Notes under the pieces: model-generated
Database searches by the model: none
Told to the model about the DNA's origin: nothing
Seen by the model: the letters and a program-made list of their open reading frames with translations, nothing else
Position numbers and translations under genes: made by a program
Shown: positions 2,116 through 47,899 of the stretch, in pieces
How positions within the stretch are numbered: position 1 is the stretch's first letter
How the letters are laid out: every line of letters starts with the position of its first letter
Assembly: GCA_038045405.1 (NCBI GenBank)
Contig: JBBSYF010000015.1
Span: 1-54,530, forward strand
Source: Nanobdellota archaeon
Lineage (GTDB): Archaea; Nanobdellota; Nanobdellia; Pacearchaeales; GW2011-AR1
Reading direction: 5' to 3'
DNA length: 54,530 nucleotides

Positions 2116-3555
2116 ATGCCTGAGAAACTTAAGCTCTATAACACTTTATCAAGGAAAAAAGAGGTTTTCAAACCGTTGAAAGAGGGTGCGATAAACATGT
2201 TTGTTTGTGGGCCCACAGTTTGGAATTACATTCATCTTGGAAATGCAAAAACATATATCCAGTTTGACGTAATTGCAAGGTATTTGAGAGCTGCTGGATA
2301 CAAAGTTTTCTATTTGCAAAATGTGACGGATATAGATGACAAAATAATAAACAAAGCGAAAGATGACGGGGTTAGCTGGAAAGAAATAAAAGACAAATAC
2401 GAAAAATTTTATTTGGAAGATGTGGAAAGATTGGGAATAAATTCTGTGAATAAATATGCGAGAGCAACAGATTATATCTCGGAAATAATATCACAAGTTA
2501 AGAGGTTGATAAAAAAAGGGTATGCTTACAAAATTTCTGATGGATGGTACTTCGATTTAAGTAAAGATAAAGATTATGGAAAGTTGGCTGGGAGAACGGA
2601 ACTTGGAATAGAAGATGCTGTTTCAAGAATAGATGAAAACAAAGAGAAAAGAAACAGAGGAGATTTTTGTTTATGGAAGTTTTCAAAACCAGAAGAGCCA
2701 ACGTGGAAGTCAGATATCGGAGATGGTAGGCCGGGATGGCATATAGAAGACACTGCAATCACTGAAAAAGAGTTTGGTTCGCAGTATGATATTCACGGAG
2801 GAGGAATGGACCTTATTTTTCCACATCACGAAGCAGAGATTGCGCAAATGGAATCGATATCTGGAAAGAAACCATTAGTAAGATGCTGGTTGCATACGGG
2901 ATTTTTAGAAATAAACGCAGAAAAAATGGGGAAGTCAAAAAAGAACTTTTACACGATAAAAGAAGTTTTAGAAAAAGGATACTCACCAGAGCATATCAGA
3001 TATTTCTTCCTCTCAGGACATTATAGGAAACCATTAAATTTCACGTGGGAAAGCTTGGATGCTTCAAAGAATGCTTATGAAAAATTAAAGAATATTTTAC
3101 ATGTGCTTAGTGGTTCGGATGAGAAGAAAAGTAACAAGAACATCGACGCGGCTTACAAACAATTTTTAGAAATAATAAATGATGACTTAAACATGCCTCG
3201 TGGCCTATCTTTTATGTGGGATCTTCTTAGAGATGAAAAATTGAACGATGCTGAAAAATATGAACTTGTTTTAAAATTTGATAAAGTTTTTGGACTTGAA
3301 TTAGGTAAGGAAGATAATAAAGTCTATAATATTCATTTTAAAGACCAAGTAGGAATAAAAGATAGTTTTAAATTATTAATTCCAAAAAATATTTCAAAAG
3401 ATTTTCCTAAAAAAGTTTTTGATCTGGCTTATAAGAGGGAAGAATATAGGGTGAAAAAAGACTTTGTAACAGCAGATAAGTATCGAGAAAAAATTAATAA
3501 ACTAGGGTTTGTTGTTGAAGATAAAGAGAAAGGTTTTTCGATAAAAAAGAAATGA
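2116..3555 (+). CDS. cysS: cysteinyl-tRNA synthetase
   Basis: Class I motifs: HIGH variant (IHLGNAKTY) and KMSKS variant (KMGKSKKN). WHIEDTA and GGMDLIFPHHEAEIAQ are typical of CysRS. Confidence 0.95.
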   Translation: MPEKLKLYNTLSRKKEVFKPLKEGAINMFVCGPTVWNYIHLGNAKTYIQFDVIARYLRAAGYKVFYLQNVTDIDDKIINKAKDDGVSWKEIKDKYEKFYLEDVERLGINSVNKYARATDYISEIISQVKRLIKKGYAYKISDGWYFDLSKDKDYGKLAGRTELGIEDAVSRIDENKEKRNRGDFCLWKFSKPEEPTWKSDIGDGRPGWHIEDTAITEKEFGSQYDIHGGGMDLIFPHHEAEIAQMESISGKKPLVRCWLHTGFLEINAEKMGKSKKNFYTIKEVLEKGYSPEHIRYFFLSGHYRKPLNFTWESLDASKNAYEKLKNILHVLSGSDEKKSNKNIDAAYKQFLEIINDDLNMPRGLSFMWDLLRDEKLNDAEKYELVLKFDKVFGLELGKEDNKVYNIHFKDQVGIKDSFKLLIPKNISKDFPKKVFDLAYKREEYRVKKDFVTADKYREKINKLGFVVEDKEKGFSIKKK

Positions 3556-4061
3556 AATTTTTGTGGATGAGTATATTTTTAGATTTAATCTTCTTTGCAA
3601 TTATAATTATTGGAATAATCTTTGGGGGAGAATTTTTTACGGCCAATTGGATACCTGTCTCTATTGCTCTTTTTTTATTTTTTATTAAAGATATAATTAT
3701 CTATTCTCACGAAAGACAATATAAAAAGAATACACCATATGAGAAATATAAAATTAAGAAGGGTATTTTTGTAAGAGCTTTAACTGGGCTCTTAGCAGGA
3801 TTACATTATTTTTTCTTTATTGGGAGTTATAGTCATAGAAAGTATAATACCCAGGTATACAATCCAAGAACGCTAGAATGTTTTTTTGGTAATATATCAG
3901 TTTTCTTAATCTTGATAGTTTACGTATTTATTGGAATAGGGCTTTTCAAAGTAATGAGCTATTATTTTTTAATATTAATGATTATTCCAATAATAACAAA
4001 TATTATAAGTATTGAAATAAATAAAATAAATAAAAAGAGGAAAAATGGTAAAAAAAGTTGA
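3552..4061 (+). CDS. membrane protein, unknown function
   Basis: 169-aa hydrophobic ORF. It overlaps the cysS stop by 4 nt and the RuBisCO start by 17 nt. Confidence 0.5.
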   Translation: MKFLWMSIFLDLIFFAIIIIGIIFGGEFFTANWIPVSIALFLFFIKDIIIYSHERQYKKNTPYEKYKIKKGIFVRALTGLLAGLHYFFFIGSYSHRKYNTQVYNPRTLECFFGNISVFLILIVYVFIGIGLFKVMSYYFLILMIIPIITNIISIEINKINKKRKNGKKS

Positions 4062-5343
4062 GTGGTATGAAGAATTTGTAGATTTGAGTTACAAACCTAA
4101 AAGAAGTGATTTGAAAGTTTTGTTCTACTTTGAGCCTGCTGAAGGGATTTCTGCAAAAGAAGCAATAGGAAGAATTGCATCGGAGAGCAGTACAGGAACA
4201 TGGACAACTTTATTCAAAATGCCCCCTAGAATGAAGGGTCTTATGGCTACTGCATACAAAATTGAAGGAAATTATGTTTATGTTGCTTATCCGATAGAAC
4301 TTTGGGAAAAGGGAAATGCCCCACAGCTTCTTTCCGGGATTGCGGGAAATATTTTTGGAATGAAAGCTTTGAAAAACTTGAGGCTTGTTGATGTTTCTCT
4401 GCCTGAAGAATACATAAAAAGTTTCTCCGGACCAAATTTAGGAATCCAAGGATTAAGAAAATATTTCAAAGTTTATGACAGACCTTTAACTGGAGCTGTT
4501 CCAAAACCAAAAGTAGGTTTTTCAGCAGAAGAGCATGCAAAGATAGGATACGAAACATGGCTTGGTGGTTTCGATTTGGTTAAAGACGATGAAAATCTTT
4601 CTAGTCAAAGCTTCAATAATTTTCAAAAGAGAGTTGAGTTAATGACCAAATTTAGAGATAAAGCAGAGAAAGAAACTGGAGAAATAAAGGATGCTCTGTT
4701 GAACATCACTTCAGAAACAAGAGAGATGGAAAGAAGAGCAAAGATTTTACATGACAAAGGATGGAAATATGCAATGATTGATGTTGTTGTTTGCGGAGAT
4801 TCTGCGGTACAAACTTTGAGAAAAACTTTAGGAGATTATGGAATGGCAATACACGCGCATAGAGCAATGCATGCTTCTTACGACAGAAATCCAAAACATG
4901 GAATGTCTATGCAGTTCTTGGCAAAAAGAATGAGGATGATTGGCGTTGACCAAATTCACGCGGGAACTGCTGTAGGAAAGCTTGTTGGTTCAAAAGAAGA
5001 AGTTCAATCAATTGCTTCTGTTTTAAGAGAGAAAGAAGTTAAAGCAAAAAAAGGATTTTTACTCGAACAAAGTTGGGGGAATACAAAGCCAGCATTTCCT
5101 GTTTCTTCTGGAGGTTTACATCCAGGTTTAGTTCCAGATGAAATGAATATCTATGGAAAAGATATTGTTCTTCTTGTTTCTGGAGGAATTCATGGACATC
5201 CAAGGGGAACGAGGGCGGGAGCAAAAGCAACAATGCAAGCTTTAGAAGCAACAAAAAGAAAAATCAAACTTGAAGAATACGCCAAGACACATGTAGAGTT
5301 AAGAGATGCTTTGGAAAAGTGGGGGAGACTAAAACCAAGGTAA
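4045..5343 (+). CDS. rbcL: ribulose-1,5-bisphosphate carboxylase large subunit, form III-like
   Basis: STGTWTT, GNIFGMKALKNLRLVD, GGFDLVKDDENL (carbamylated Lys motif), HAHRAMHA, SSGGLHPG, SGGIHGHP. No small subunit gene is adjacent. Confidence 0.92.
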   Translation: MVKKVEWYEEFVDLSYKPKRSDLKVLFYFEPAEGISAKEAIGRIASESSTGTWTTLFKMPPRMKGLMATAYKIEGNYVYVAYPIELWEKGNAPQLLSGIAGNIFGMKALKNLRLVDVSLPEEYIKSFSGPNLGIQGLRKYFKVYDRPLTGAVPKPKVGFSAEEHAKIGYETWLGGFDLVKDDENLSSQSFNNFQKRVELMTKFRDKAEKETGEIKDALLNITSETREMERRAKILHDKGWKYAMIDVVVCGDSAVQTLRKTLGDYGMAIHAHRAMHASYDRNPKHGMSMQFLAKRMRMIGVDQIHAGTAVGKLVGSKEEVQSIASVLREKEVKAKKGFLLEQSWGNTKPAFPVSSGGLHPGLVPDEMNIYGKDIVLLVSGGIHGHPRGTRAGAKATMQALEATKRKIKLEEYAKTHVELRDALEKWGRLKPR

Positions 5344-32887: not shown

Positions 32888-34591
32888 ATGTTAAACAAAA
32901 AAGAGACGATAACAGGATTATTCTTTTTAGTATTCTTAATTTCATTTTTGTATTCAATACCCCAAGTGTCTGCAGTTGGAGAAACTTTTGTTTGTGCTGA
33001 AAAAACTTTAAGTGGTGCATGGTGTATGAATGTTCCAGAGAATCAAGCTAGTACTGCTATAAATCCTGTCACAGGGAGAGCTTACTCCGTTGCCAGAAGT
33101 TCATGTGAATCAACTTCTTTTTGTAGGATGGGAACTTGCGTTGACAACCAACAGGGAGAATGCCGACCAAATGTTCCTCAAAGAGTTTGTCAAGCTAGCA
33201 GTGGATTTTGGGTTCAGGGAAAACCAGAGGCAATCCCGCAATGCCAACTTGGATGTTGTTTGGTTGGAGACCAAGCCGCATTCGTTACAGCAACAGGATG
33301 CACGGCTATCGGTTCTCAGTATGGAGTAACTCCAACTTTCAATTCTCAAGTAAGAGACTCTGAATCATGTCTTGCTTTGTCAAATCCTAAGGCTATGGGT
33401 GCATGCGTCATTGATGACGGATTTCAAAGAGATTGTAAAAATATTGCTAATGCAGAGTGTAATGCTCTTCAGACTTCTGGTTCTGGAAACAGAAAAATAA
33501 CTTTTAGCGAGGGATTATTATGTACTGCAGACGTTTTAGCAACAAGATGTGCAGTGCCTGCTCCAAATAAAATAAAAACAACATGTGTCGAAGGAAAGTT
33601 TGGAGTTTATTTCTTAGATACTTGTGGAAACATAGCAAATATTTACGACGCCTCAAAAGTCGACGTTTCAAAAGTAATAAACAGAGAATATTGGACGTAT
33701 AGGAAAGATATAAGCGAAAGTTGTGGAGCTACTTCAAACAATGCAGGTTCAAAGACGTGTGGAAACTGCGACTATCAAGCAGGAAGTATTTGTAAACCTG
33801 TAAACAGGGCAACTCCCGATGCAACACCTCAACCATCATCTGGAGATTTTGTTTGCGCTGATTTAAGTTGTACATACAAAAATGAGAAATATCTTCACGG
33901 AGAGTCGTGGTGTGCAGGTAATTCTCCAGGAGCAAACGAGAATCTTCCCGGAAGTGAACATTATGTTTTAACATGTTATAGCGGAGAAGTTACTTCATCG
34001 CAATGTGATTCATTAAGACAATCGATTTGTCATGAAGACACAATCGAGGGTTATAGTGTGGCCGCTTGTGTAGCAAACAATTGGAGAGACTGCGTAGACC
34101 AAAAAAATAAAACAGTTTGTGAAGATGCTCAAAAAAGAGATTGTAAGTGGGTAGTTGGAAGTGCGCTTCAAATACCTGGACTTTCAGATAATGAAACAGG
34201 AGTAACTTATGTTTTAGATGATGACGGAAACCTTGTTCCAAGGGCAGGAAGCACGGGTACAGTTGGAGCGGCGTGCGTTCCAAGATATGCTCCGGGATTG
34301 AATACCAACACCACAGAAGCTGAGATTGCATGTTTCGCTGCAAGTGAAACTTGTCTTGTAAAATTCGGGAGACAAAACAGGCTTGACGACTGGAGTTGTA
34401 AATCTAATTGTCAGTGTCTCAAGAAAGAATGGGCAGACGGAAAAATAAATCAGTGTCTTGCTTTAGGTGATTGCGGAGTAAAGAAAAATTACTTAGGACA
34501 AAAGGGAGAAAGTTATGATCCTTTCACACAAGAAGGGGAACATGTAACAGGATTTAGCCAAAATCCTGTAAATGAAAGAAAATTCCCATAA
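32888..34591 (+). CDS. secreted cysteine-rich protein (~41 Cys in 567 aa)
   Basis: Sec-type signal LFFLVFLISFLYSIPQVSA, Cys spread through the whole length, no TM anchor. It starts 4 nt after the previous stop. Confidence 0.7.
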   Translation: MLNKKETITGLFFLVFLISFLYSIPQVSAVGETFVCAEKTLSGAWCMNVPENQASTAINPVTGRAYSVARSSCESTSFCRMGTCVDNQQGECRPNVPQRVCQASSGFWVQGKPEAIPQCQLGCCLVGDQAAFVTATGCTAIGSQYGVTPTFNSQVRDSESCLALSNPKAMGACVIDDGFQRDCKNIANAECNALQTSGSGNRKITFSEGLLCTADVLATRCAVPAPNKIKTTCVEGKFGVYFLDTCGNIANIYDASKVDVSKVINREYWTYRKDISESCGATSNNAGSKTCGNCDYQAGSICKPVNRATPDATPQPSSGDFVCADLSCTYKNEKYLHGESWCAGNSPGANENLPGSEHYVLTCYSGEVTSSQCDSLRQSICHEDTIEGYSVAACVANNWRDCVDQKNKTVCEDAQKRDCKWVVGSALQIPGLSDNETGVTYVLDDDGNLVPRAGSTGTVGAACVPRYAPGLNTNTTEAEIACFAASETCLVKFGRQNRLDDWSCKSNCQCLKKEWADGKINQCLALGDCGVKKNYLGQKGESYDPFTQEGEHVTGFSQNPVNERKFP

Positions 34592-34617
34592 CAGACAGAT
34601 AAAATAAAAAATATTAA

Positions 34618-36990
34618 ATGAAAAAAGAAATTTTTAGAAAAAGAGAAAAGATGAAAAAAGGTTCGATTGCTGTAAGCCAAATAATTATTTTAGTTGTTAG
34701 CTTGATTGCTTTTTCTTATTTTGTAGGAAGCGAGTTTAAGATTGTGAGTGCGGCGGACGTGTGTACTAGAAATAATGCTGGTGCACCAGTTAAAGTTCCT
34801 GCTGGAGTTGATGTGAACATTCAGAGTCAGGTAAATTCATTTTGTATGAGTTCTGGAGGTAGTGCGGTATGTGACGGGGGAAGTGGGAACTGGAGATTAA
34901 GAATAACTTCATGTACAACATTACCACCTACACCCCAATTACAAAATACCCCTGGAAAATACACTCCTTCACTACCTTCCACAATATCAACAGTTGCATC
35001 AACAGTCGACACTGGATTACGATTGAAGAGTGCAATAAATGCTAAGAAGGCAAAGGATTTGGCGGCGGGATTGACTTCCGATCAGTTTACAAACGTTGCA
35101 GATGCTAGTAAGACAGGTTTATTTGCAAAACTGGGGGGAAGCGGATCTAGATGGTTCGGAGGAAGTACCAAAATAGGACTACAAGCAATAGGAAAGAACT
35201 TCGTTTGGGCAGCAGTAATTTATTTCGGAAGTAACTTTATTATGAGAAGCATGTTTAATATGGACCCTCAACTTGCAAATTCAATTTCTGCATCGCTTGC
35301 CACAGGGTATATGGGTGCGACTGTTTATGCTGCCCTCAAGGGGGGATTTGCTGCAGGAAGTGTTGGAGGACCGTTGGGGATGTTTATAGGCGTTGCTATC
35401 GCAGTTGCGGTTTTCGTATTTACTGGAGAGACTAAGAAAGTAAACGTCGTTACATTTTCATGTAATCCTTGGAGTGCTCCTGTTGGAGGAAAAGATTGCG
35501 AGAAATGTAACACTGGAGATTTCCCATGCACAGCGTATAAATGTCAAAGTTTAGGACAAGCATGTAATCTCGAAAATAAAGGAACAACAGAGGAACTTTG
35601 TGTGTGGAAAAATAGAACAGATATCAAACCTCCAGTAATCAAACCTTGGTTAGATGTTTTGACAACAGGATATAATTACAATCCCGATGGAACAATCTCA
35701 CCCCCAGATACCGGAGTAAAAATTATTCCTGGAACAAATGTAACAGGATGCATTGCTCCATTCACGCCTATTACCTTTGGAGTTATGCTCGACAAACCGG
35801 GAAAGTGTAAGATAGAAACATCAAACAAAGGGAATTTTAGTTCGATGAGATATTTCTTCGGCGGTAGTTCAACATTAAAATACAACCACACAATGAGGTT
35901 ACCCGGATTCTTGAGTAATGAATCTTTGTTTGCAGAAAATGCAAGTATGGCTAATGGCGGAAGAGTTACTCTTTACACAAGATGTCAAAGTGCTAATGGA
36001 TACTCAAACGTTGCAAATTTCATTTTCAATTTCTGTGTTGACCAAGGACCAGACAGAACACCTCCAAGAATAGTAACAACGAGTGTTTTGAATGGAATGC
36101 CAATATCTTATGGAACAAAGTCTGTCCCATTACAAGTTTATGTAAATGAACCATCAGAGTGTAGATGGAGTCATCTTGATAGGAGCTACGACGATATGGG
36201 AAGTGATAATAACATGTCTTGTGTAACGGGCTCGACAGATTTCAACGCCCAGCTGCTTTATCAGTGTTCAACAACCCTTACAGGTTTAGTAGACAGAGTA
36301 GACAATAATTTTTATTTCAGGTGTAAGGACCAACCACATTTGAAGAACACTAATAGATCTGGAGAAAGAAATGCCAATACTGTATCTTACAAATTCGTGT
36401 TAAAAGGAACTCAGCCTTTGGTAATAGACGCTGCTGGACCAAACAATACTGTAATAAGAGATTCTACAAATGTGATAAAAGTAACTCTTACTGCTAAAAC
36501 ATCAGCAGGATTCAACGCTGGAGATGCAACATGCTCATACAAAAACATGGCAACACCTACTGGAGAGATGATAGGCTTCTTCAACACAGGAACATTCAAT
36601 CATTCGCAAGAGCTGTGGCTTCCAGAAGCAAATTACAGTTTCTATATTGAATGCGTTGACTTCGGAAATAATGCAGATAATAAAACAATAAATTTCAGAG
36701 TTGAATCAGACACTGCAGCTCCGGTAGTTGGAAGAGTTTTCAGACAAGAAAACAAACTGAAAATAATTACAAATGAAGAAGCACAGTGTGTGTATGGAAA
36801 TGTGAATTGCGACTATGAGTTGATAGATGGAACAAACATGAGTAAGGCGGTTAATGGAACTGAACATTCTACAGCATGGGATACAAATAAAGTTTTCTAC
36901 ATTAAATGTGCAGATAAATACGGAAACAGGCCTCTCCCTAATCAGTGTAACATAATTGCAAGGCCATTCGATATTCCTTCAGTAAAGTAA
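34618..36990 (+). CDS. large membrane-embedded surface protein (790 aa)
   Basis: N-terminal signal anchor, a small Cys domain, a hydrophobic block (FVWAAVIYFGSNF, GYMGATVYAAL, MFIGVAIAVAVFVFTG), then a ~520-aa Cys-containing ectodomain. Confidence 0.7.
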   Translation: MKKEIFRKREKMKKGSIAVSQIIILVVSLIAFSYFVGSEFKIVSAADVCTRNNAGAPVKVPAGVDVNIQSQVNSFCMSSGGSAVCDGGSGNWRLRITSCTTLPPTPQLQNTPGKYTPSLPSTISTVASTVDTGLRLKSAINAKKAKDLAAGLTSDQFTNVADASKTGLFAKLGGSGSRWFGGSTKIGLQAIGKNFVWAAVIYFGSNFIMRSMFNMDPQLANSISASLATGYMGATVYAALKGGFAAGSVGGPLGMFIGVAIAVAVFVFTGETKKVNVVTFSCNPWSAPVGGKDCEKCNTGDFPCTAYKCQSLGQACNLENKGTTEELCVWKNRTDIKPPVIKPWLDVLTTGYNYNPDGTISPPDTGVKIIPGTNVTGCIAPFTPITFGVMLDKPGKCKIETSNKGNFSSMRYFFGGSSTLKYNHTMRLPGFLSNESLFAENASMANGGRVTLYTRCQSANGYSNVANFIFNFCVDQGPDRTPPRIVTTSVLNGMPISYGTKSVPLQVYVNEPSECRWSHLDRSYDDMGSDNNMSCVTGSTDFNAQLLYQCSTTLTGLVDRVDNNFYFRCKDQPHLKNTNRSGERNANTVSYKFVLKGTQPLVIDAAGPNNTVIRDSTNVIKVTLTAKTSAGFNAGDATCSYKNMATPTGEMIGFFNTGTFNHSQELWLPEANYSFYIECVDFGNNADNKTINFRVESDTAAPVVGRVFRQENKLKIITNEEAQCVYGNVNCDYELIDGTNMSKAVNGTEHSTAWDTNKVFYIKCADKYGNRPLPNQCNIIARPFDIPSVK

Positions 36991-37700: not shown

Positions 37701-38234
37701 ATGATAACAAAAAATATCAAAGAAAGGGTAAAAGAGCATTTTTTAAAGAATCCTTCATCAAAGCTAAGAGTCAGACAGATAGAACGAGAGTTAAAACTGC
37801 CTTTACCCTCAGTTATTAGGTATTGTAAGGAGCTTGAAAAAGAAGGCATTTTGAAAAAGACTGAGATATCTGAGACTGTTTTTTATTCTGCAGACAGGAC
37901 AAGCAAAAAGTTCATACTTGAAAAAAGGATTTTTAATATAAAGGAAATTTCTGATTCAGGATTGATTGAGTATCTTGTTAGTGAATATAGCAATCCAGTT
38001 ATAGTAATTTTTGGATCTTACTCGAAAGGAGAAGATACAGAAGAAAGTGATATAGACATTTATATAGAAACTCCGTCAAAAAAAGAGATAAAGATTGATA
38101 AGTTTGAGAAAATTCTCAGAAAAGAAATACAAATTTTTAAACAATCTAATCTTGTGCAGATTGAAAATAAACACTTAAGGAATAGTATAATAAATGGATT
38201 CTGCCTTAATAATTCATTAGAGGTATTCAAATGA
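37701..38234 (+). CDS. minimal nucleotidyltransferase (MNT) with N-terminal wHTH
   Basis: IVIFGSYSKGEDTEESDIDIYIE (GSx..Gx..SDxD) preceded by RVRQIERELKLPLPSVIRYCKELEKEGIL. Confidence 0.8.
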   Translation: MITKNIKERVKEHFLKNPSSKLRVRQIERELKLPLPSVIRYCKELEKEGILKKTEISETVFYSADRTSKKFILEKRIFNIKEISDSGLIEYLVSEYSNPVIVIFGSYSKGEDTEESDIDIYIETPSKKEIKIDKFEKILRKEIQIFKQSNLVQIENKHLRNSIINGFCLNNSLEVFK

Positions 38235-38683
38235 AAGATTCATCCTGGGAAGACTGCATTGAATCGAACTCTGCAATAAAGGTTACCCCAAATAAGCAAA
38301 AAGCTATGTCCTTAGTGGAGGTTGCTGAAGGCAGAATTAATGTTTTTAAGATGGATTTAAACGAAAAAACTGCTAATTACATTTTTGAAGACTATTACTC
38401 ATCAGTTTTAGAATTTGTCCAGGCAATAGTTTTTTTGAAGGGATATAAAGTGAATAACCATATTTGTCTAGGATTTTTTTTAAGAGATTTTCTAAAAAAA
38501 GAAGAATTGTTTAGGACTTTTGATGACTGCAGATTTAAAAGAAATTCCTTGATGTACTATGGAAAGAAGATGGATTTTGAAGTCGCGAAAGAAGCAATAA
38601 ATAAGTCTAAATCTTTACTTAGCGAGTTAAGGGTTATTTTAAAAGATGCTTTAAAATCAGAAAGGGGGAAAAATGAAAATTAA
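38231..38683 (+). CDS. HEPN-domain protein (partner of MNT)
   Basis: All-helical, 150 aa. The motif region is CRFKRNSLMYYG (RN...Y, with Tyr where many HEPN proteins have His). It overlaps MNT by 4 nt. Confidence 0.68.
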   Translation: MKDSSWEDCIESNSAIKVTPNKQKAMSLVEVAEGRINVFKMDLNEKTANYIFEDYYSSVLEFVQAIVFLKGYKVNNHICLGFFLRDFLKKEELFRTFDDCRFKRNSLMYYGKKMDFEVAKEAINKSKSLLSELRVILKDALKSERGKNEN

Positions 38684-39638
38684 CAAAACCCCTAAGAGGG
38701 CGCAGTTACAAGTTTCCTTTGCATGGATTTTCGCAATTATCGTCGGAGCATTTATTCTTTTTATTGCAATTTATAGTGCAACAAAAGTAGTAAAGACTGG
38801 AGATACTGGAGTAAGTGCAAAGGCAGGGAAAGAAATTTCTGCACTTTTAAATCCATTAGAGATAGGATTTGAAACAGGAGTTGTTATTTTATTAGCAGTT
38901 CCCGTAGAAACAAGAATCCATAATCAGTGCGATTCTTCGGGGAATTTTGGAAGGCAGGTAATAAAAGTGTCTCAAAAAAGTTTTAACACGTGGGCAGAAA
39001 CGGATGTAGAAGCCGGTTTCCCAAACAAGTTTATTTTCTCTGACGGCGTTGAAGAAGGAAGAAACTTTATTGTTTTTTCCAAGCCCTTTGAATTTCCGTT
39101 TAAAGTTTCAGATGTAATTTACATGACATCTTCAAACAAAAAATATTGTTTCTTCAAAGCACCGACAGAAATAAAAAAAGAGCTTCAGGGTTTAGGACAA
39201 GAAAATATCCTTGTTGAAAGCTTAGAGTGCCCTGAACAGAGTATAAAAGTTTGTTTCTCAGAAACTGTGGGCGCAGATTCTGGTTGTGATATCACTGTCG
39301 ATAAAATGCAAAGTTCTGTTGAGAAAAGGGGAGAGATGGTGTATTACGAAACTGATGCTTTGATGTATGCTGCTATTTTTTCAGATAAGGCAGTTTATGA
39401 ATGTCAAGTAAAGAGACTTATGAAAAGAACGGAACAGCTTTCTCTTTTATATGATGAAAAGAGGTCTTTGCTCTCCCAAAAAGGATGTCCAGATACTGTT
39501 GACCTTCAATCTTTAGCAAGTTCTGCTAATTCCATTACAAACTCTTCAACTTTGAGTTCACAAGATTTGTTTTCTGTTGCTATTACAGCAGATCAAGTAA
39601 ATAAACAAAATGATGCTGCGACGTGCACATTATGGTAA
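38673..39638 (+). CDS. type IV prepilin-like protein (class III signal)
   Basis: MKINKTPKRA|QLQVSFAWIFAIIVGAFILFIAIY. The start overlaps the HEPN gene by 11 nt. Confidence 0.6.
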   Translation: MKINKTPKRAQLQVSFAWIFAIIVGAFILFIAIYSATKVVKTGDTGVSAKAGKEISALLNPLEIGFETGVVILLAVPVETRIHNQCDSSGNFGRQVIKVSQKSFNTWAETDVEAGFPNKFIFSDGVEEGRNFIVFSKPFEFPFKVSDVIYMTSSNKKYCFFKAPTEIKKELQGLGQENILVESLECPEQSIKVCFSETVGADSGCDITVDKMQSSVEKRGEMVYYETDALMYAAIFSDKAVYECQVKRLMKRTEQLSLLYDEKRSLLSQKGCPDTVDLQSLASSANSITNSSTLSSQDLFSVAITADQVNKQNDAATCTLW

Positions 39639-39654
39639 CGAGATAAAATAAAAA

Positions 39655-40200
39655 ATGAAAAACCCCGCCCTAAAGGGCGAGGTATCGGATAAATAAAACA
39701 AACAAATGCAATCACAAATCGATTCAAGGTTGAGAAGAGTTAATGTAGTGAGCAACGGCTTCAGTAGTTGTGTTTCCGACGCTGCGAAAGAATTTTCCGG
39801 GACTCCAGAAATGTCCTTTTCGGAAATAATTTCTCAGCTAGGGATGTTTTTGCAACAAACAGAAAGCACTGTAACCTTTGAAAAGCTGAAGAGCTTTGCT
39901 GATGCTCATCGTGGGAGGAAGTTCAACGAAGAGATGGATGTGGTCAACAGCGACGTGAAGTTCATAGATTTTACACCCTTCACGATAAGCAACTTTTCTG
40001 ATAAAGAACTCACAGTCCATTCTAACTCCATAGAATTTCATAGGGTCCATAGCATATTTGCATTTCCACACGAAGTGGAAAGCATTTTGGCCGAAGCTAT
40101 GCTTTCTAGATTTCAAGTCCATTTTTCATCTCCTATAGCTCACGCTAAGTTTAGTTTAGTTTCAAGAGGGCTAGGAACTAACCCTAGCCTTTCTAGAAAT
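39655..40200 (-). mobile_element. IS200/IS605-family element (tnpA only), ends approximate
   Basis: A Y1 transposase gene is flanked by subterminal hairpins: CCCCGCCC-TAAA-GGGCGAGG (39663-39682) and GGCTAGG-AACTAAC-CCTAGCC (40169-40189). The region looks less AT-rich than its neighbours by eye. Confidence 0.6.
39724..40122 (-). pseudogene. tnpA: IS200-type Y1 transposase TnpA interrupted by one in-frame TAG
   Basis: ...HVAVDHIHLFVELPPTMSISKALQLFKGYSAFCLLQKHP-TAG(39838-39840)-LRNYFRKGHFWSPGKFFRSVGNTTTEAVAHYINSSQP. Both halves are in the same frame. Confidence 0.8.
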
Positions 40201-40420
40201 TCAAGACAATTAAATTTTGAGGGCAGCGATTCCTCCCAAAACTTAAAAGTTTGGGTATCCTCGCTGCAGATGTAATGAAAATGATAAAAAGTAAATTTTA
40301 TAAAGTTGAAAAATCTGTTTATTTTAGCAGTTTTAGGACTGTGAGTATGAGCCCCAGTAACTCAAAAGAGTTGCTGGATGTTTATTTTGTTTCTAAGTGT
40401 TTTAAGGAGGTTAATCTGTC

Positions 40421-40996
40421 GTGGAAAACACTTTAGTTTTTGTTGATGATGGTTTTTTTGGACTTGTTAAAAAACATTTACAAAAGAAAGATGGAAGAGG
40501 GAAAAAATATTTACAAACATTCCGAAATATATGCAAAAAAGAAAATTTGAACCTTAAACATTTATTTATTTATTCTGCGCCTCCTTATCAAAGTGCAAAA
40601 CCCACAGAATCAGAAAGATACTTAACAAGCCGGTATAATAGCATGATGAAAATGTTAAAGAACAAAAAGTGGGTAACAGTTAGAGAGGGGCGGTGTCAAA
40701 AAATCGTTGATGAAAATGGTAAAATAGATTATTCACAAAAAGGTGTTGATGCTCTTCTCATCTTAGATATGTATGATATAAAAGAACTGTATCCAGCGAT
40801 AAATAAAATAATTTTAATAGCTTCTGATTCAGATTTTGTCCCCGTAATTGAAAGAATGAAAAGCAAAGGAATAAAAATAATTCTTTACACTTATTTTGAT
40901 AGAATTAGAAGTTCTAAATTTTCTACCTCAAACCATCTTTTAGGGGTGGCGTCTAAATGGGTTAAACTAAATGAAAGTTTCTTTGAGAATACTTAA
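40421..40996 (+). CDS. NYN/LabA-like (PIN-fold) ribonuclease domain protein
   Basis: LVFVDDGFF, KGVDALLILDM and ILIASDSDFVPVIERMKSKGIKI. GTG start with AAGGAGG 8 nt upstream. Confidence 0.78.
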   Translation: MENTLVFVDDGFFGLVKKHLQKKDGRGKKYLQTFRNICKKENLNLKHLFIYSAPPYQSAKPTESERYLTSRYNSMMKMLKNKKWVTVREGRCQKIVDENGKIDYSQKGVDALLILDMYDIKELYPAINKIILIASDSDFVPVIERMKSKGIKIILYTYFDRIRSSKFSTSNHLLGVASKWVKLNESFFENT

Positions 40997-40999
40997 AAT

Positions 41000-41485
41000 A
41001 TGAAAATAAAACCGAAATATTTGTATCATGGAAGTGGAAGAAGATTGAGGGGGGATAAATTGATTCCGAAAAAAGCTAAAGAGCTGGATAAAAAAAACAA
41101 ACATAATGATTTCAAGGGAATTTATGCTTCTGATGTAAAAAACGAAGCTATTGCTATGGGAATCTTGAAGAGTAGAGGGGTTAAAGATTCAAGTTGTGGG
41201 TTTTATACAAAGCATGGCATTAAAGTTGAAGCAGTTATTTACTGGGGGTGGCCAGAACAAAAATGCTTTTATCTTTACACCTTACCTGCTGAAACATTTG
41301 AAAATAAACCAAGAGGTAGTCATCAATGGATTTCTTTTAAATCAATTAAGCCAATCAGAATAGAAAAATTGATTGTTAAAGATTATATTTATTTGATTAG
41401 GAAGGCAACTAAATTAGAAAAGAAAAATTGGATAAAAAAATATGGAAAAGGTGGTGAAAAAGATGATAAAAATAAAAAAAGATAA
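41000..41485 (+). CDS. hypothetical protein with a possible H-Y-E ADP-ribosyltransferase-like pattern
   Basis: YLYHGSG (H10), KGIYASD (Y42), KVEAVIYW (E77). This is a motif-level resemblance only. Confidence 0.45.
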   Translation: MKIKPKYLYHGSGRRLRGDKLIPKKAKELDKKNKHNDFKGIYASDVKNEAIAMGILKSRGVKDSSCGFYTKHGIKVEAVIYWGWPEQKCFYLYTLPAETFENKPRGSHQWISFKSIKPIRIEKLIVKDYIYLIRKATKLEKKNWIKKYGKGGEKDDKNKKR

Positions 41486-41756
41486 ATATTTAAGAAAAAG
41501 AGGTGGAACGGCAAAAGTAATAAAAGTTTCATGTGTTAACTGTGGATGTCAAATATTTGTTTATCAGAAAGACGGACCTGGATGGTTAAAAAGATGTTAT
41601 TTAAACAGAATTATTGAGCCGAAAAAAGAGGAGTATCCTGAAAAATTAAAGTGTAAATGTGGTGAATTAATTGGTTCTATGACAAAGCACAAAGATGGGA
41701 GGTTGGCTTATAGTTTGATTAGAGGTAAATTCAAAAGAGTAAATTACAAAGAATGA
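41442..41756 (+). CDS. zinc-ribbon protein, unknown function
   Basis: CVNCGC...CKCGE cysteine pairs. It overlaps both neighbours, and the start may be Met8 (41463). Confidence 0.45.
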   Translation: MEKVVKKMIKIKKDKYLRKRGGTAKVIKVSCVNCGCQIFVYQKDGPGWLKRCYLNRIIEPKKEEYPEKLKCKCGELIGSMTKHKDGRLAYSLIRGKFKRVNYKE

Positions 41757-42277
41757 TAAAATCTAAATCGGGACAAATGAAAATACAACAAATGGCTTTC
41801 ATGCTTATAGCCGTGACTGTTTTCTTTGCACTTGTTGGAATGTTTGTTCTTACAATTGTATTCTCAAATATGAAAGCATCCGCGGCCGTTCTTGAAGAAA
41901 AGAATGCATTGCTTCTCGCGTCGAGATTAGCAAACAGTCCAGAGTTTAGATGCGGAAATGCTTTTGGAACAGAGAGGGCGAATTGTGTTGATTTCGATAA
42001 AGTAATGGCTTTGAAAAAAGGTATAAAGAAGTACTCTCAGGCTGGTTTTTGGGGAGTTTCAAAGATAGAGATAATAAAGATTTATCCTACGGGTGCGAGT
42101 AGCAATGTGCTTTGCACTTTAGAAAATTATCCTGAATGTGGAAGGATAGAGATTCTTCCTGCTGGCGAAGGCACAGGAGTTTCAAATTTCATTGTTTTAT
42201 GTAGAAAAGAGTATAACGGAGGGCAAGTTCAAAATGTATGTGAGTTGGCAAAGATAGTAATAACATACAAAGGATAA
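41753..42277 (+). CDS. type IV prepilin-like protein (class III signal)
   Basis: MIKSKSG|QMKIQQMAFMLIAVTVFFALVGMFVL. Confidence 0.6.
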   Translation: MIKSKSGQMKIQQMAFMLIAVTVFFALVGMFVLTIVFSNMKASAAVLEEKNALLLASRLANSPEFRCGNAFGTERANCVDFDKVMALKKGIKKYSQAGFWGVSKIEIIKIYPTGASSNVLCTLENYPECGRIEILPAGEGTGVSNFIVLCRKEYNGGQVQNVCELAKIVITYKG

Positions 42278-42278
42278 G

Positions 42279-42836
42279 ATGAAAATGGGAGATGAAAATA
42301 TAAAAAAGGAAGGGCTTAGAAGCATAAGAGAATTTGAAATGGCTTGGAATGAGTTCTTTAAAGACAAGCCAGAACCAAAAAACGACGACGAAGATAGAAA
42401 ACAGCAAGAAGAGTTTCATAATTGGTATAACCATGTTAGAAAACAAAGTGATACTGGAAAAACTCCTGCTGAAATGTATAAAGAAATTTATGGTAAAGAG
42501 CCACCAAAAAACAATCAAGAGTCAAGTAGGGTAATGAATTTTGGGTGGGATGAAGGTTATAATGAAGATGATTTTGACGAGGGAGATAAATTAGATGATG
42601 CTGAAGAAGAAGCAGTTGGTATTGCTACTAAAATATTTGAAGATAGTTGGAAAAGAATAAAGCGAGAGGTGGAAGGGGTTAGCAAAAAAGAGATATGTAA
42701 GTATTCGTTTATCTTGGGATTTTTAGACTACATGAAAATGATGGATAAGAAGATGGAGATAATTAAAAAAGGGATGAAAAGTATGTCTAAGAAAGACATT
42801 CAAGAAATACTTGACAAATTAAATGAAAATAAATAA
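42279..42836 (+). CDS. acidic hypothetical cytoplasmic protein
   Basis: 185 aa, D/E-rich centre, no TM helix. It starts 2 nt after the previous stop. Confidence 0.45.
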   Translation: MKMGDENIKKEGLRSIREFEMAWNEFFKDKPEPKNDDEDRKQQEEFHNWYNHVRKQSDTGKTPAEMYKEIYGKEPPKNNQESSRVMNFGWDEGYNEDDFDEGDKLDDAEEEAVGIATKIFEDSWKRIKREVEGVSKKEICKYSFILGFLDYMKMMDKKMEIIKKGMKSMSKKDIQEILDKLNENK

Positions 42837-43429: not shown

Positions 43430-43798
43430 TTATTTCACAAATTCTACATTCTCTAGGTTTTCAAATTCTTTATCTCCAGTAAGGAATTTTATTCCTAGCT
43501 TTTTTGACATTACATAACTAATGCAGTCTGTCATTGAAACGCCACTGTCTTTCCATTTAAGTCTAAATTCCATAGCTTCTTTTATCCATTCTGGCTTTGC
43601 GTGAAGTATTGCCGACTTTAATCTATCGGTAATTTCACCAGAGTTTTTTGCTTTATCCCTTGCTAAGCTGTAGCATAGTTCTGCAAAAATAAAATCATTG
43701 ATTATAGTGTTCTTTTCAGTATATTTAAGATAATTTGGATTTTTATCAATAATTTCCATTAGAGCATAGGTGTCGAAAAGAAATGTGTCTTCACTCAT
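43430..43798 (-). CDS. vapC: PIN-domain toxin VapC
   Basis: FLFDTYALMEI (N-terminal acidic PIN motif), about 120 aa. It overlaps the antitoxin by 8 nt. Confidence 0.78.
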   Translation of the reverse strand: MSEDTFLFDTYALMEIIDKNPNYLKYTEKNTIINDFIFAELCYSLARDKAKNSGEITDRLKSAILHAKPEWIKEAMEFRLKWKDSGVSMTDCISYVMSKKLGIKFLTGDKEFENLENVEFVK

Positions 43799-44018
43799 TG
43801 TAAAGCTCTTTATCTGCTTCTTTAAGAAGTTGACTTATTGGTTTACTAAACTTATGGCTTCCAAAAATCTCTCTTAATACGTTGCCCTTTTGACTTTTTT
43901 TCAAAAGAACGCTTATTTCATCACCATTTTTCATTTCCTGTTGCTGAGCAATACCCAAAGGTATAACTATTCCAAAAGAATTTCCCCATTTTTGCAACTT
44001 AGTTTTTATTTCTATCAT
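43791..44018 (-). CDS. vapB: AbrB/SpoVT-fold antitoxin VapB
   Basis: KLQKWGNSFGIVIPLGIAQQQEMKNGDEISV (swapped-hairpin motif). Confidence 0.78.
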   Translation of the reverse strand: MIEIKTKLQKWGNSFGIVIPLGIAQQQEMKNGDEISVLLKKSQKGNVLREIFGSHKFSKPISQLLKEADKELYNE

Positions 44019-47244: not shown

Positions 47245-47263
47245 ACTATAGGCATTCTATAGT
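47245..47263. promoter_or_regulatory. 7-bp inverted repeat ACTATAG-GCATT-CTATAGT, probable mazEF operator
   Basis: It lies between the TATA-like ATTTATAAA and the antitoxin start codon. Confidence 0.45.
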
Positions 47264-47506
47264 GTGATGATTACAACAATTCAACTTAATGAGAGTGTGA
47301 AAAAAACATTAAATATGTTGAAGAATGGTAAGGAAACTTATGAAGATGTGATTGTTAATCTCATTGATAAAGTAGATGCGGATAGGAAAAAAATGGAGGG
47401 GTTATTAAAAGAAGAGGCTCTTGAATTTGCTGAAGAAAGCCTGAAAATTGCTAAAGAGTGGGAGTTTGCCTTAATGGACGGGCTTGATAAAAATGAGAAA
47501 TGGTAG
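47264..47506 (+). CDS. antitoxin of the MazF module
   Basis: 80 aa, acidic C-terminus, N-terminus TTIQLNESVKKTLNMLKNGKETYEDVI. It overlaps mazF by 7 nt. The start is GTG 47264 or ATG 47267. Confidence 0.6.
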   Translation: MMITTIQLNESVKKTLNMLKNGKETYEDVIVNLIDKVDADRKKMEGLLKEEALEFAEESLKIAKEWEFALMDGLDKNEKW

Positions 47507-47847
47507 AAATTAAAAGAGGGGATGTTTTTTGGGCAAACTTGGAACCAACAAAAGGAAGTGAGCAAGGAGGAATAAGACCTGTTCTGATAATTCAAAATGA
47601 CACTTTCAACATTTATAGCCCAACAGTTATAGTAGCTCCTCTAACCTCTAAAAAACCATCCAAAAAGTATCTTACAAGTATTTTTGTTTCTAAAGAGGAT
47701 TTGAAAATGAAGAAAGATTCAACGATATTGCTTAGTCAAATAAGGACTATTGACAAAAGAAGAATTCTCAAAAAGGTTTCTTCTTTAAACAAAGAAACAA
47801 TGGAAAAGGTAGAGTTAGCAATTAAGATAAGTCTAGGAATGGCTTAG
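47500..47847 (+). CDS. mazF: MazF/PemK endoribonuclease toxin
   Basis: IKRGDVFWANLEPTKGSEQGGIRPVLIIQND...VIVAPLTS. Confidence 0.86.
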   Translation: MVEIKRGDVFWANLEPTKGSEQGGIRPVLIIQNDTFNIYSPTVIVAPLTSKKPSKKYLTSIFVSKEDLKMKKDSTILLSQIRTIDKRRILKKVSSLNKETMEKVELAIKISLGMA

Positions 47848-47899
47848 CCTGTTTTATTGTTACATTAAACTTTATAAATATCTAGAACAACTATCAGTT

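What the first reader, a model, noticed from the sequence alone, without database searches (positions are those of the whole stretch)
40421..41756. Three-gene NYN / possible ART-like / zinc-ribbon cassette beside the IS200 remnant and translationally coupled to a prepilin-like gene
The first gene is a GTG-start NYN/LabA-like PIN-fold RNase (VFVDDGFF, GVDALLILDM, IASDSDFVPV) with a strong AAGGAGG. A 161-aa ORF follows 3 nt later. Its only recognisable signal is an H-Y-E pattern in contexts like those of ADP-ribosyltransferases: YLYHGSG (H10), KGIYASD (Y42) and KVEAVIYW (E77). For comparison, the PARP-type contexts are LWHGS / GIYFA / EYIVY. An overlapping 104-aa CxxC...CxC zinc-ribbon ORF comes next, and its stop overlaps the start of the prepilin-like gene at 41753. 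Nuclease plus NAD-utilising enzyme plus small Zn-binding partner is a typical layout for conflict (toxin-antitoxin or antiviral) systems. I do not recognise this particular trio. The ART assignment rests on motifs only and is weak.
Basis: inference. Interest (0 to 1): 0.65.

Follow-up and report, generated by a model that had tools for sequence, protein, structure and literature searches.

The report
Three unrelated genes, not a cassette
The three tightly packed genes are real, and the middle one does look like a small ADP-ribosyltransferase, but they sit together only in this one groundwater archaeon and are not a conserved defence or toxin-antitoxin system.

Summary
The ORFs, motifs and overlaps are in the sequence as described, in a DPANN (Pace-/Nanoarchaeota-type) genome. 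Its top real PDB fold matches are all ARTs (Arr, TreTu, TreX). A profile comparison aligns H10 and Y42 to Arr H19 and Y49 and beats 60/60 shuffled controls. Relatives are fused or adjacent to NUDIX, HAD, NMNAT-like, nucleotidase and kinase modules. The proposed E77 is not conserved; the conserved third polar residue is [Q/E]109.

Of 20 loci encoding the middle protein in other populations, none has the Zn-ribbon gene and one has a distant, divergently oriented NYN. Of 80 Zn-ribbon loci, none has the middle gene and one has a distant NYN. Three relatives show an ancestral pilin321–ART–pilin174 order, into which NYN (with an IS200 remnant) and the Zn-ribbon gene are inserted here. NYN (at least 785 clusters; the best 120 mostly 70–93% identical) and the Zn protein (at least 277 clusters, 26 invariant columns, β-tent-like fold) look like conserved core genes. 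PADLOC finds no defence system. Tight spacing is normal in this genome (17 of 46 junctions). Verdict: an ordinary juxtaposition containing one modestly interesting ART-like family.

The parts
39838..40122 (-). Truncated IS200/IS605-type Y1 transposase remnant (94 aa; covers profile positions 6-85 of 121). The 189-aa ORF on the plus strand (39706-40275) is antisense to it and probably spurious.
   Evidence: Pfam Y1_Tnp E=3e-16; ORF list. Absent from the syntenic loci L008 and L108.
40404..40410 (+). AAGGAGG Shine-Dalgarno-like motif, 10 nt upstream of the GTG start of the NYN gene.
   Evidence: Read directly from the sequence.
40421..40996 (+). NYN/LabA-like PIN-fold nuclease gene (191 aa, GTG start), with intact acidic active-site residues D9, D10, D110, D116, D136 and D138. 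A highly conserved DPANN gene that is lineage-specifically placed here.
   Evidence: Pfam NYN 36.4 bits, above the 24.2 cut-off. At least 785 homolog clusters; the best 120 listed are mostly 70-93% identical over the full length. 76 invariant columns in 19 sequences. Different contexts elsewhere. Absent upstream of the middle-gene homolog in L008, L108 and L095.
41000..41485 (+). 161-aa ART-superfamily (Arr/DUF6886-like) protein with signature H10-G-S, Y42-A-S and [Q/E]109-W-x-S112, an extra beta-hairpin at about residues 61-83, and a poorly conserved basic C-terminal tail.
   Evidence: Alignments A1 and A4 and the 162-domain alignment. AF2 model pLDDT 85.6. Foldseek PDB top hits Arr 2hw2, TreTu and TreX. 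Pfam per-member hits. hhalign to Arr with shuffle control. Fusions and neighbours.
41463..41756 (+). Zn-binding small basic protein (97 aa from M8; the ORF is open from 41442). Invariant C31, C34, C52, C71, C73 and the block YQKDG.G.LKRCY.NRI. Predicted all-beta, beta-tent-like (RIG-I/MDA5 CTD, Yippee/Mis18, MsrB-like) fold. A widespread DPANN gene that is lineage-specifically placed here.
   Evidence: At least 277 homolog clusters at 56-79% identity. A2 has 26 invariant columns and a conserved start. AF2 pLDDT 83. Foldseek. Pfam hints. 80 loci with no middle-gene homolog nearby.
41753..42277 (+). Pilin-like gene (174 aa; N-terminal hydrophobic helix). Its ATG overlaps the Zn gene's TGA (ATGA). 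In relatives it directly follows the ART-like gene.
   Evidence: Homologs lie directly downstream of the middle-gene homolog in L008 (55% identity) and L100 (53%). No Pfam family.
38673..39638 (+). 321-aa pilin-like gene. It is the ancestral upstream neighbour of the ART-like gene (6 to 14 nt away in L008 and L108); here it is separated from it by the IS200 remnant and NYN.

Best explanation
The block is not a functional three-gene system. It is a lineage-specific juxtaposition of three independently evolving genes in a compact, rearrangement-prone stretch of a DPANN archaeal genome. That stretch is a cluster of pilin-like and S-layer genes that has also picked up an IS200 remnant and several toxin-antitoxin pairs.

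Shown: the ancestral local order in relatives is pilin321 - ART-like gene - pilin174. In this lineage an IS200 remnant plus the NYN gene lie upstream of the ART-like gene, and the Zn-ribbon gene lies downstream of it.

Inferred roles, each acting on its own:
(1) NYN is a metal-dependent PIN-fold endoribonuclease with a conserved, probably housekeeping, RNA-processing role in Pace-/Nanoarchaeota.
(2) The 161-aa protein is a minimal, Arr-like member of the H-Y-[E/D/Q] clade of ADP-ribosyltransferases. It would bind NAD+ through H10 (strand 1) and Y42 (strand 2) and use [Q/E]109 as the third active-site residue. Because the wider family repeatedly associates with NUDIX, HAD phosphatase, P-loop kinase, NMNAT-like, nucleotidase, deaminase and GNAT modules, its target is more likely a nucleotide, small molecule or nucleic acid than a partner encoded by either neighbour.
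(3) The Zn protein is a beta-tent-type zinc-binding, probably RNA- or nucleotide-binding, core protein.

The three are probably co-transcribed simply because genes in this genome are packed end to end.
For: Non-conservation of the trio. 20 middle-gene loci from other populations: 0 with the Zn gene; 1 with a NYN homolog (40% identity, opposite strand). 80 Zn-gene loci with up to 8 kb flanks: 0 with the middle gene; 1 with a NYN homolog (29% identity, opposite strand). NYN orthologs lie in other contexts. The closest middle-gene relative (87% identity, L095) has no NYN homolog in its 524 nt of upstream sequence.

Synteny. L008, L100 and L108 give pil171-pil321-MID-PIL174-...-pil165-HVO_A0114-S-layer, without the IS200 remnant, NYN or the Zn gene.

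Different phyletic breadth. 43 versus at least 277 versus at least 785 clusters.

No defence model. PADLOC gives only a partial NYN hit at E=2.6e-4 and nothing for the other two.

Tight spacing is generic. 17 of 46 same-strand junctions are overlapping or at most 10 nt apart.

ART assignment. Foldseek top hits are Arr 2hw2 (prob 0.90), TreTu (0.77) and TreX. H10 160/162, G11 160/162, Y42 158/162, A43 158/162, [Q/E]109 160/162. Pfam DUF6886 in 47/63 members, then Arr-ms, ART-PolyVal and DUF3990; these three are among the ART families listed in PMC7955679. hhalign aligns H10 to Arr H19 and Y42 to Arr Y49; score 24.6 against a maximum of 17.1 in 60 shuffles. Fusions to NUDIX, CTP_transf_like, NT5C, dCMP deaminase, Zeta/AAA_33, ParB_N and HAD.

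NYN. Invariant acidic residues.

Zn protein. Invariant Cys pairs and beta-tent fold hints.
Against: The three genes are co-oriented, tightly packed and stably linked across many samples of this population, so a recently assembled functional operon cannot be excluded. One middle-gene locus (L103) does have a NYN paralog next to it. The structural evidence for ART is statistically weak (Foldseek E 0.24-0.63, TM 0.41-0.51; hhalign probability is low). The window's protein scores below Pfam's DUF6886 threshold (17.2 against 27 bits). The position aligned to Arr D84 is not conserved, and whether Q109 occupies the catalytic strand-5 site could not be checked, because no coordinates or structural alignment were available. 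'Housekeeping' for NYN and the Zn protein is inferred from conservation and breadth, not shown. No transcript data exist.
Confidence: 0.75

Rival explanations
1. The trio is a real, recently assembled conflict module (toxin-antitoxin or antiviral) specific to this lineage. Either the NYN nuclease or the ART is the effector, and the Zn protein is a sensor or regulator.
For: Co-orientation, a 3-nt spacer, 23-nt and 4-nt overlaps, and a strong SD before the first gene. Location in a stretch rich in TA pairs and next to an IS remnant. The Zn protein's fold resembles the RNA-end-sensing RIG-I/MDA5 CTD. ART domains are common conflict effectors (established knowledge; PMC7955679).
Against: No co-occurrence in 100 other loci. 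NYN and the Zn protein are far more conserved (mostly 70-93% and 56-79% identity) and far more widespread than expected for fast-evolving defence genes, and each occurs alone elsewhere. No PADLOC model matches. Tight packing is the genomic norm.
Confidence: 0.07
2. The ART-like protein is a functional component of the pilin-like/S-layer gene cluster. For example, it may ADP-ribosylate a pilin, an assembly factor or a host-contact protein. NYN and the Zn gene are then mere insertions into that operon.
For: pil321-MID and/or MID-PIL174 adjacency, with spacers of 3-14 nt or overlaps, in L008, L100 and L108 as well as the window, at only 54-63% protein identity.
Against: Equally close homologs lie elsewhere: in the exosome superoperon (L007/L096), next to AsnRS/AspRS, HisRS, NifU/ABC, NUDIX or GNAT genes. 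The four pilin-linked loci may be one clade that shares synteny by descent. The protein has no signal peptide or membrane segment. The wider family's partners are nucleotide-metabolism enzymes.
Confidence: 0.12
3. The 161-aa protein has an ART-like fold but is not an NAD+-dependent transferase. It could be a binding module, or an enzyme with different chemistry, with the His and Tyr conserved for other reasons.
For: Most family members have Gln rather than Glu at the best candidate third position (118 Q against 42 E). The residue aligned to Arr D84 is not conserved. Fold-match statistics are weak. The family's closest Pfam model is a DUF with no assigned function (no literature).
Against: The H-G-[ST] and Y-A-[ST] motifs are the hallmark NAD+-contacting elements of the H-Y-[E/D/Q] clade, which explicitly allows Gln (PMC7955679). 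Fusions to NUDIX and NMNAT-like domains point to NAD+/ADP-ribose chemistry.
Confidence: 0.15

Closest known systems
Arr, rifampin ADP-ribosyltransferase (Pfam Arr-ms PF12120; PDB 2hw2, 9iba)
   Same: A minimal stand-alone ART of about 140-150 aa. It is the top Foldseek PDB hit (prob 0.90). H10-G-S aligns to Arr H19-G-T and Y42 to Arr Y49; 'FYLYTLP' aligns to Arr 'RIFIVEP'. The hhalign score exceeds all 60 shuffled controls.
   Different: Only 2 of 63 family members touch the Arr-ms model, both below threshold. There is an extra beta-hairpin at about residues 61-83. The position aligned to Arr's catalytic D84 is variable, and the conserved polar residue is [Q/E]109 further downstream. There is no evidence for a rifamycin substrate.
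Pfam DUF6886 (PF21820), an uncharacterised family
   Same: It is the best Pfam match for 26/27 close and 47/63 diverse family members. One distant relative (P0429) scores above the threshold.
   Different: The window's protein scores 17.2 bits against a cut-off of 27, and only over its C-terminal third. No publication mentions DUF6886, so its function is unknown.
ART-PolyVal (PF18760) and DUF3990 (PF13151), ART-clan domains of phage and conjugative-element polyvalent proteins
   Same: Weak per-member Pfam hits. Distant relatives are embedded in very long multidomain proteins carrying ParB_N, MSSS, DUF2188, HNH-repeat and GNAT pieces. Viral fold matches include polyvalent-protein-associated and PcfJ-like proteins.
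   Different: The DPANN proteins are stand-alone, chromosomal and about 150 aa long. The hits are far below threshold.
NYN/LabA-like nucleases (PF01936; TIGR00288)
   Same: Pfam hit above threshold, with conserved acidic residues.
   Different: It forms a distinct, very tightly conserved DPANN subfamily; the TIGR00288 score is far below its cut-off. There is no conserved partner gene.
Beta-tent / Mss4-like zinc domains (RIG-I/MDA5/DRH-3 C-terminal domains, Yippee/Mis18, MsrB)
   Same: Two Cys pairs about 40 residues apart and an all-beta prediction. Foldseek hits to MDA5, DRH-3, RIG-I CTD, Mis18 and MsrB, and Pfam hints RIG-I_C-RD, Yippee-Mis18, GFA and At4g08330.
   Different: All statistics are weak (E 0.05-1.7; TM 0.36-0.48). 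The second pair is CxC rather than CxxC, and there is a fifth invariant Cys. No function is assigned.

Membership tests
NYN domain nucleases (PF01936) | Profile score above the curated threshold | tested here: met
   36.4 bits against a cut-off of 24.2, E=8.9e-9. All listed homologs carry PF01936.
NYN domain nucleases (PF01936) | Conserved acidic metal-binding residues of the PIN-like active site | tested here: met
   D9, D10, D110, D116, D136 and D138 are invariant in 19 sequences.
NYN domain nucleases (PF01936) | Ribonuclease activity | not testable with these tools
   Needs biochemistry.
ADP-ribosyltransferase superfamily, H-Y-[E/D/Q] clade | ART fold (split beta-sheet with flanking helices) | tested here: inconclusive
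   The AF2 model is confident (pLDDT 85.6). The three best real PDB matches are ARTs (Arr prob 0.90, TreTu 0.77, TreX 0.35), but with E 0.24-0.63 and TM 0.33-0.51. No coordinates were available for inspection.
ADP-ribosyltransferase superfamily, H-Y-[E/D/Q] clade | His on strand 1 (H-G-[ST]) | tested here: met
   H10 160/162, G11 160/162, S/T12 150/162. It lies in predicted strand 7-12 and aligns to Arr H19.
ADP-ribosyltransferase superfamily, H-Y-[E/D/Q] clade | Tyr on strand 2 | tested here: met
   Y42 158/162, plus 4 Phe. It lies in predicted strand 39-44 and aligns to Arr Y49.
ADP-ribosyltransferase superfamily, H-Y-[E/D/Q] clade | Glu/Asp/Gln at the start of strand 5 | tested here: inconclusive
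[Q/E]109 is conserved in 160/162 and opens predicted strand 109-112 after a long loop. However, the Arr-based alignment puts Arr D84 near the variable residues 101-103, and the 3D position was not verified.
ADP-ribosyltransferase superfamily, H-Y-[E/D/Q] clade | NAD+ binding and ADP-ribosyl transfer | not testable with these tools
   Needs biochemistry.
Arr family (PF12120) | Profile membership and the catalytic Asp (D84 in M. smegmatis Arr) | tested here: not met
   Only 2/63 members hit Arr-ms, with a best E of 0.0031. The aligned positions 101-103 are variable. This is a relative of the Arr family, not a member.
Pfam DUF6886 (PF21820) | Score at or above the gathering threshold (27 bits) | tested here: not met
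   The window's protein scores 17.2 bits over residues 87-133 only. 47/63 relatives match weakly, and one distant relative scores 31.8 bits.
Known anti-phage defence systems (PADLOC-DB v2) | Protein models of a catalogued system match the genes | tested here: not met
   There is only a 30-residue NYN hit at E=2.6e-4, and nothing for the other genes.
Toxin-antitoxin or conflict operon (generic) | Conserved co-occurrence and adjacency of the components across genomes | tested here: not met
   0/20 middle-gene loci have the Zn gene, and 1/20 has a distant NYN on the opposite strand. 0/80 Zn loci have the middle gene, and 1/80 has a distant NYN.
Beta-tent (Yippee / RIG-I CTD / MsrB-like) zinc domains | Two zinc-ligand Cys pairs on facing hairpins | tested here: met
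   C31xxC34 and C71xC73 are invariant in 34 sequences. The strands flanking them are predicted.
Beta-tent (Yippee / RIG-I CTD / MsrB-like) zinc domains | Fold match | tested here: inconclusive
   MDA5 (E 0.05, prob 0.82), DRH-3 CTD, RIG-I CTD, Mis18 Yippee (TM 0.48/0.53) and MsrB2. Weak Pfam hints.
RNase P protein Rpp21/Rpr2 (one JGI label on homolog P0162) | Rpr2 profile match, and N-terminal helical pair plus C-terminal Zn ribbon | tested here: not met
   Rpr2 is hit by 1/34 members at E=0.058. The model is all-beta with the zinc site spanning the whole protein. There is no Rpp21 among the fold hits.

The most novel reading that the evidence does not exclude
The 161-aa protein represents an undescribed branch of minimal, Arr-like ADP-ribosyltransferases with an H-Y-Q active site. 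The branch has at least 422 representative clusters, is related to DUF6886, and is common in DPANN archaea; distant relatives include long multidomain proteins that resemble phage polyvalent proteins. It would work with NUDIX, HAD and kinase partners on a nucleotide, nucleic-acid or small-molecule substrate. In this Pacearchaeota clade it may have been recruited into a pilin/S-layer operon, where it could modify surface or host-contact proteins of an episymbiont.
Probability: 0.15. Interest if true: 0.55.

Novelty: new member of a known kind. Interest (0 to 1): 0.3.

Why it matters
As a candidate new defence or TA system it does not hold up, which saves follow-up effort. Two by-products have modest value. 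First, there is a sizeable, unannotated ART-superfamily branch (below Pfam thresholds, with no literature) whose H-Y-[Q/E] signature and NUDIX/HAD/NMNAT-like associations make it a testable NAD+-utilising enzyme in organisms with minimal metabolism. Second, there is a very strongly conserved beta-tent-like zinc protein found across DPANN, and in contigs labelled as CPR bacteria, whose function is unknown. Both are ordinary annotation gains, not new biology.

Tried and rejected
- **E77 as catalytic Glu:** rejected. The column is variable.
- **Q87 (WPxQ before strand FYLYTL) as the third residue:** rejected. It is near-invariant in the close DPANN set but only 67/162 in the wider family.
- **Profile searches of PDB sequences with A1 and A4:** no meaningful hits. 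The same was true for the Zn protein.
- **The search for related loci with the full A1 alignment:** A tighter sub-alignment, A3, worked.
- **Zn protein as RNase P Rpp21/Rpr2:** rejected.
- **The ADD_ATRX Pfam hit of the Zn protein:** it covers only the CxxC region and is below threshold, so I treated it as a generic Cys-motif match.
- **Conserved neighbours for the Zn gene:** the commonest cluster occurs in only 12/80 loci (GTP cyclohydrolase II/OMP-decarboxylase-like). Others are a serine recombinase (6), a weak RNase P p30-like gene with PheRS (4) and RsmB (3). No consistent partner.
- **RNA-seq evidence for co-transcription:** no RNA runs hold the region.
- **Base composition as a sign of insertion:** uninformative. 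The IS200 remnant is the local GC maximum at 0.41 and the three genes are at 0.28-0.33.
- **Second copies of any of the three genes in the window:** none.
- **Literature on DUF6886, and on ARTs in DPANN:** nothing relevant.
- **Sigma-70 promoter scan:** not run, because it does not apply to archaea.
Full report
**What the window is.** It carries an archaeal RNase P RNA (104-387) and tRNA-Phe. Named homologs of the genes studied come from Candidatus Pacearchaeota and Nanoarchaeota MAGs. The identical contig occurs in groundwater assemblies (ENA records named 'Hain_H52'), and the region is found in many groundwater DNA runs. So this is a compact, AT-rich DPANN genome.

**Checking the observation.** Every sequence-level statement is correct.
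- The GTG-start 191-aa ORF is at 40421-40996, preceded by AAGGAGG at 40404-40410.
- The 161-aa ORF follows 3 nt later, at 41000-41485.
- The overlapping 104-aa Cys-rich ORF is at 41442-41756.
- An ATGA stop/start overlap joins it to the pilin-like ORF at 41753.
- A truncated IS200-type transposase lies on the other strand at 39838-40122 (Y1_Tnp E=3e-16).
- One correction: 34 homologs of the Zn protein all begin at 'MKIKKDKYL'. Its start is therefore most likely M8 at 41463, giving 97 aa and a 23-nt overlap.

**NYN gene.** Pfam NYN is above threshold. There are at least 785 homolog clusters, and the best 120 listed are mostly 70-93% identical over the full length. In 19 sequences, 76 columns are invariant, including D9, D10, D110, D116, D136 and D138. 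Orthologs in other genomes sit in unrelated contexts: between acetate kinase and a PTAC gene in L111, and inside a type I restriction-modification locus in L112. This degree of conservation and breadth is what a core RNA-processing enzyme shows, not a fast-evolving defence gene. That reading is an inference.

**Middle gene: conservation.** A word-indexed search found 43 clusters, all about 150 aa; the named ones are from DPANN archaea. An exhaustive profile search found 422 representatives at E<=1e-3. In 162 near-full-length domains (median 37% identity to the window's protein), conservation is as follows:
- H10 in 160, G11 in 160, S/T12 in 150
- Y42 in 158 (plus 4 Phe), A43 in 158, S/T44 in 155
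- position 109 is Q in 118 and E in 42
The signature is therefore H-G-[ST] ... Y-A-[ST] ... [Q/E]-[WYF]-x-S. This fits the H-Y-[E/D/Q] definition of one ART clade (PMC7955679).

**Middle gene: structure and profile evidence.**
- An AF2 model from the alignment is confident (pLDDT 85.6, pTM 0.80). H10 and Y42 lie on the first two strands, and Q109 opens a strand after a long loop.
- Against the PDB, the three best real matches are all ARTs: Arr (2hw2, prob 0.90), and the Rhs toxins TreTu and TreX. E-values are only 0.24-0.63 and TM-scores 0.33-0.51.
- Scanned one by one, 47 of 63 diverse members weakly match Pfam DUF6886. The next most frequent families are Arr-ms, ART-PolyVal and DUF3990, all three among the ART families listed in PMC7955679.
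- I validated an Arr-2 sequence against PDB 9iba and 2hw2 and compared the family profile with Arr. H10 aligns to Arr H19 and Y42 to Arr Y49.
- With the family-specific hairpin (residues 58-84) removed, the alignment spans 97 columns with a score of 24.6. None of 60 column-shuffled templates exceeded 17.1.
- The positions aligned to Arr D84 (residues 101-103) are variable, so the identity of the third catalytic residue stays open. [Q/E]109 is the best candidate by conservation.

**Middle gene: fusions and neighbours.** Distant relatives are fused to NUDIX (E=1e-18), an NMNAT-type cytidylyltransferase-like domain, NT5C nucleotidase, dCMP deaminase, a Zeta/AAA_33 kinase, ParB_N and HAD, or sit inside very long multidomain proteins that resemble phage polyvalent proteins. 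Stand-alone copies are translationally coupled to NUDIX (L099) or lie beside HAD plus kinase plus MFS (L109) and GNAT genes (L008, L010, L107). Together these independent lines make an NAD+-utilising ART-superfamily enzyme the best reading. It is a relative of Arr and DUF6886, not a member of either under their thresholds.

**Zn protein.** There are at least 277 clusters at 56-79% identity. Twenty-six columns are invariant, including C31, C34, C52, C71, C73 and the block YQKDG.G.LKRCY.NRI. The AF2 model (pLDDT 83) is all-beta. Fold matches are MDA5, DRH-3 and RIG-I C-terminal domains, Mis18/Yippee and MsrB. Weak Pfam hints (RIG-I_C-RD, Yippee-Mis18, GFA, At4g08330 beta-tent) agree on a beta-tent-like zinc domain, but the statistics are weak. 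A genome scan returned 80 loci from Nano-, Pace-, Woese- and Micrarchaeota, and from contigs labelled as Patescibacteria/CPR, including complete chromosomes. The one 'RNase P Rpr2' label on a homolog is not supported.

**Is the trio a unit?** No.
- In 20 middle-gene loci from other populations, none has the Zn gene within the available flanks. One (L103) has a NYN paralog (40% identity) on the opposite strand. The closest relative (87% identical, L095) has no NYN homolog upstream.
- In 80 Zn-gene loci with up to 8 kb on each side, none has the middle gene. One (L062) has a distant NYN (29% identity) on the opposite strand.
- Locus L008 is syntenic with the window: pil171 - pil321 - MID - PIL174 - (GNAT) - pil165 - HVO_A0114 - S-layer. 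MID follows pil321 after 6 nt, and PIL174 follows MID after 3 nt. L108 (pil171-pil321-MID) and L100 (MID-PIL174) confirm this order.
- Relative to that order, the window has four extras: an MNT/HEPN-like pair (37701-38683), the IS200 remnant plus NYN (39706-40996), the Zn gene (41463-41756) and a PIN/MazE pair (43430-44018).
- Other middle-gene homologs lie in the exosome superoperon (SBDS-MID-Rrp4-Rrp41-Rrp42-RpoK, L007/L096), or next to aminoacyl-tRNA synthetases, NifU/ABC and other genes.
- PADLOC recognises no system.
- Tight spacing carries no weight: 17 of 46 same-strand junctions in the window overlap or are within 10 nt.

**Conclusion.** The block is best explained as a lineage-specific juxtaposition in a rearrangement-prone surface-protein region of a compact genome. 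What remains of interest is an unannotated ART-like family and a highly conserved zinc protein of unknown function.

Noticed in passing
window 41463-41756; loci L015-L094: The small Zn protein belongs to an unannotated family with extreme conservation (26 invariant columns). It is found across Nano-, Pace-, Woese- and Micrarchaeota, and in contigs labelled Patescibacteria/CPR, including complete chromosomes (for example CP181398.1 Kerfeldbacteria, L077). The CPR matches are partial (N-terminal two thirds, 40-54% identity). The labels were not verified.
   Followed up: partly
window 37701-38683, 43430-44018, about 47260-47850: The pilin/S-layer region carries several toxin-antitoxin-like pairs: an HTH-nucleotidyltransferase (MNT) with a 150-aa partner, a PIN with a MazE/AbrB-like gene, and a VapB-like gene with PemK (as called in L001). 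The first two are absent from the syntenic locus L008, so this region is an insertion hot spot.
   Followed up: partly
L002 8480-8500 (= window about 41495-41500): One assembly of the same population (coverage about 9.5) has a 1-nt deletion in an A-run (AAGAAAAAGAGG to AAGAAAAGAGG) inside the Zn gene. It removes the N-terminal 16 codons from the frame, and the gene was not called there. It may be a homopolymer assembly error or a real pseudogene variant.
   Followed up: partly
L007 3264-7427 and L096: A 64%-identical homolog of the ART-like gene sits inside the archaeal exosome superoperon (proteasome-alpha, SBDS, [ART-like], an overlapping 82-aa ORF with no Pfam hit, Rrp4, Rrp41, Rrp42, RpoK).
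   Followed up: partly
L011 / L015 around 2944-4755 (L011 coordinates): In the closest Zn-gene relative (77% identical), the Zn gene lies between an RsmB/F-type methyltransferase gene and a separate PUA-domain (Methyltranf_PUA) gene, overlapping the latter by 4 nt. It looks as if it splits a methyltransferase-PUA pair.
   Followed up: no
L112 2324-8570: A 74%-identical NYN ortholog lies inside a type I restriction-modification locus (HsdM, a 48-aa ORF, NYN, four unknown ORFs, PIN_12, HsdS).
   Followed up: no
window 39706-40275 (+): A 189-aa ORF that gene callers annotate (L001, L002) is antisense to the IS200 transposase remnant and has no family hits. It is probably a spurious call.
   Followed up: partly
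window 42279-42836: A 185-aa acidic protein with no family match occupies the position where the syntenic locus L008 has a GNAT acetyltransferase.
   Followed up: no
P0227 (NYN homolog, 254 aa): One NYN homolog carries an insertion of roughly 57 residues after residue 42 of an otherwise conserved sequence. It could be an intein-like or mobile insertion, or an assembly artefact.
   Followed up: no
window 32888-36990: Two large ORFs (567 and 790 aa) upstream of the pilin-like genes have no Pfam match at E<=0.01, although they are in the position where pilus-assembly genes might be expected.
   Followed up: no
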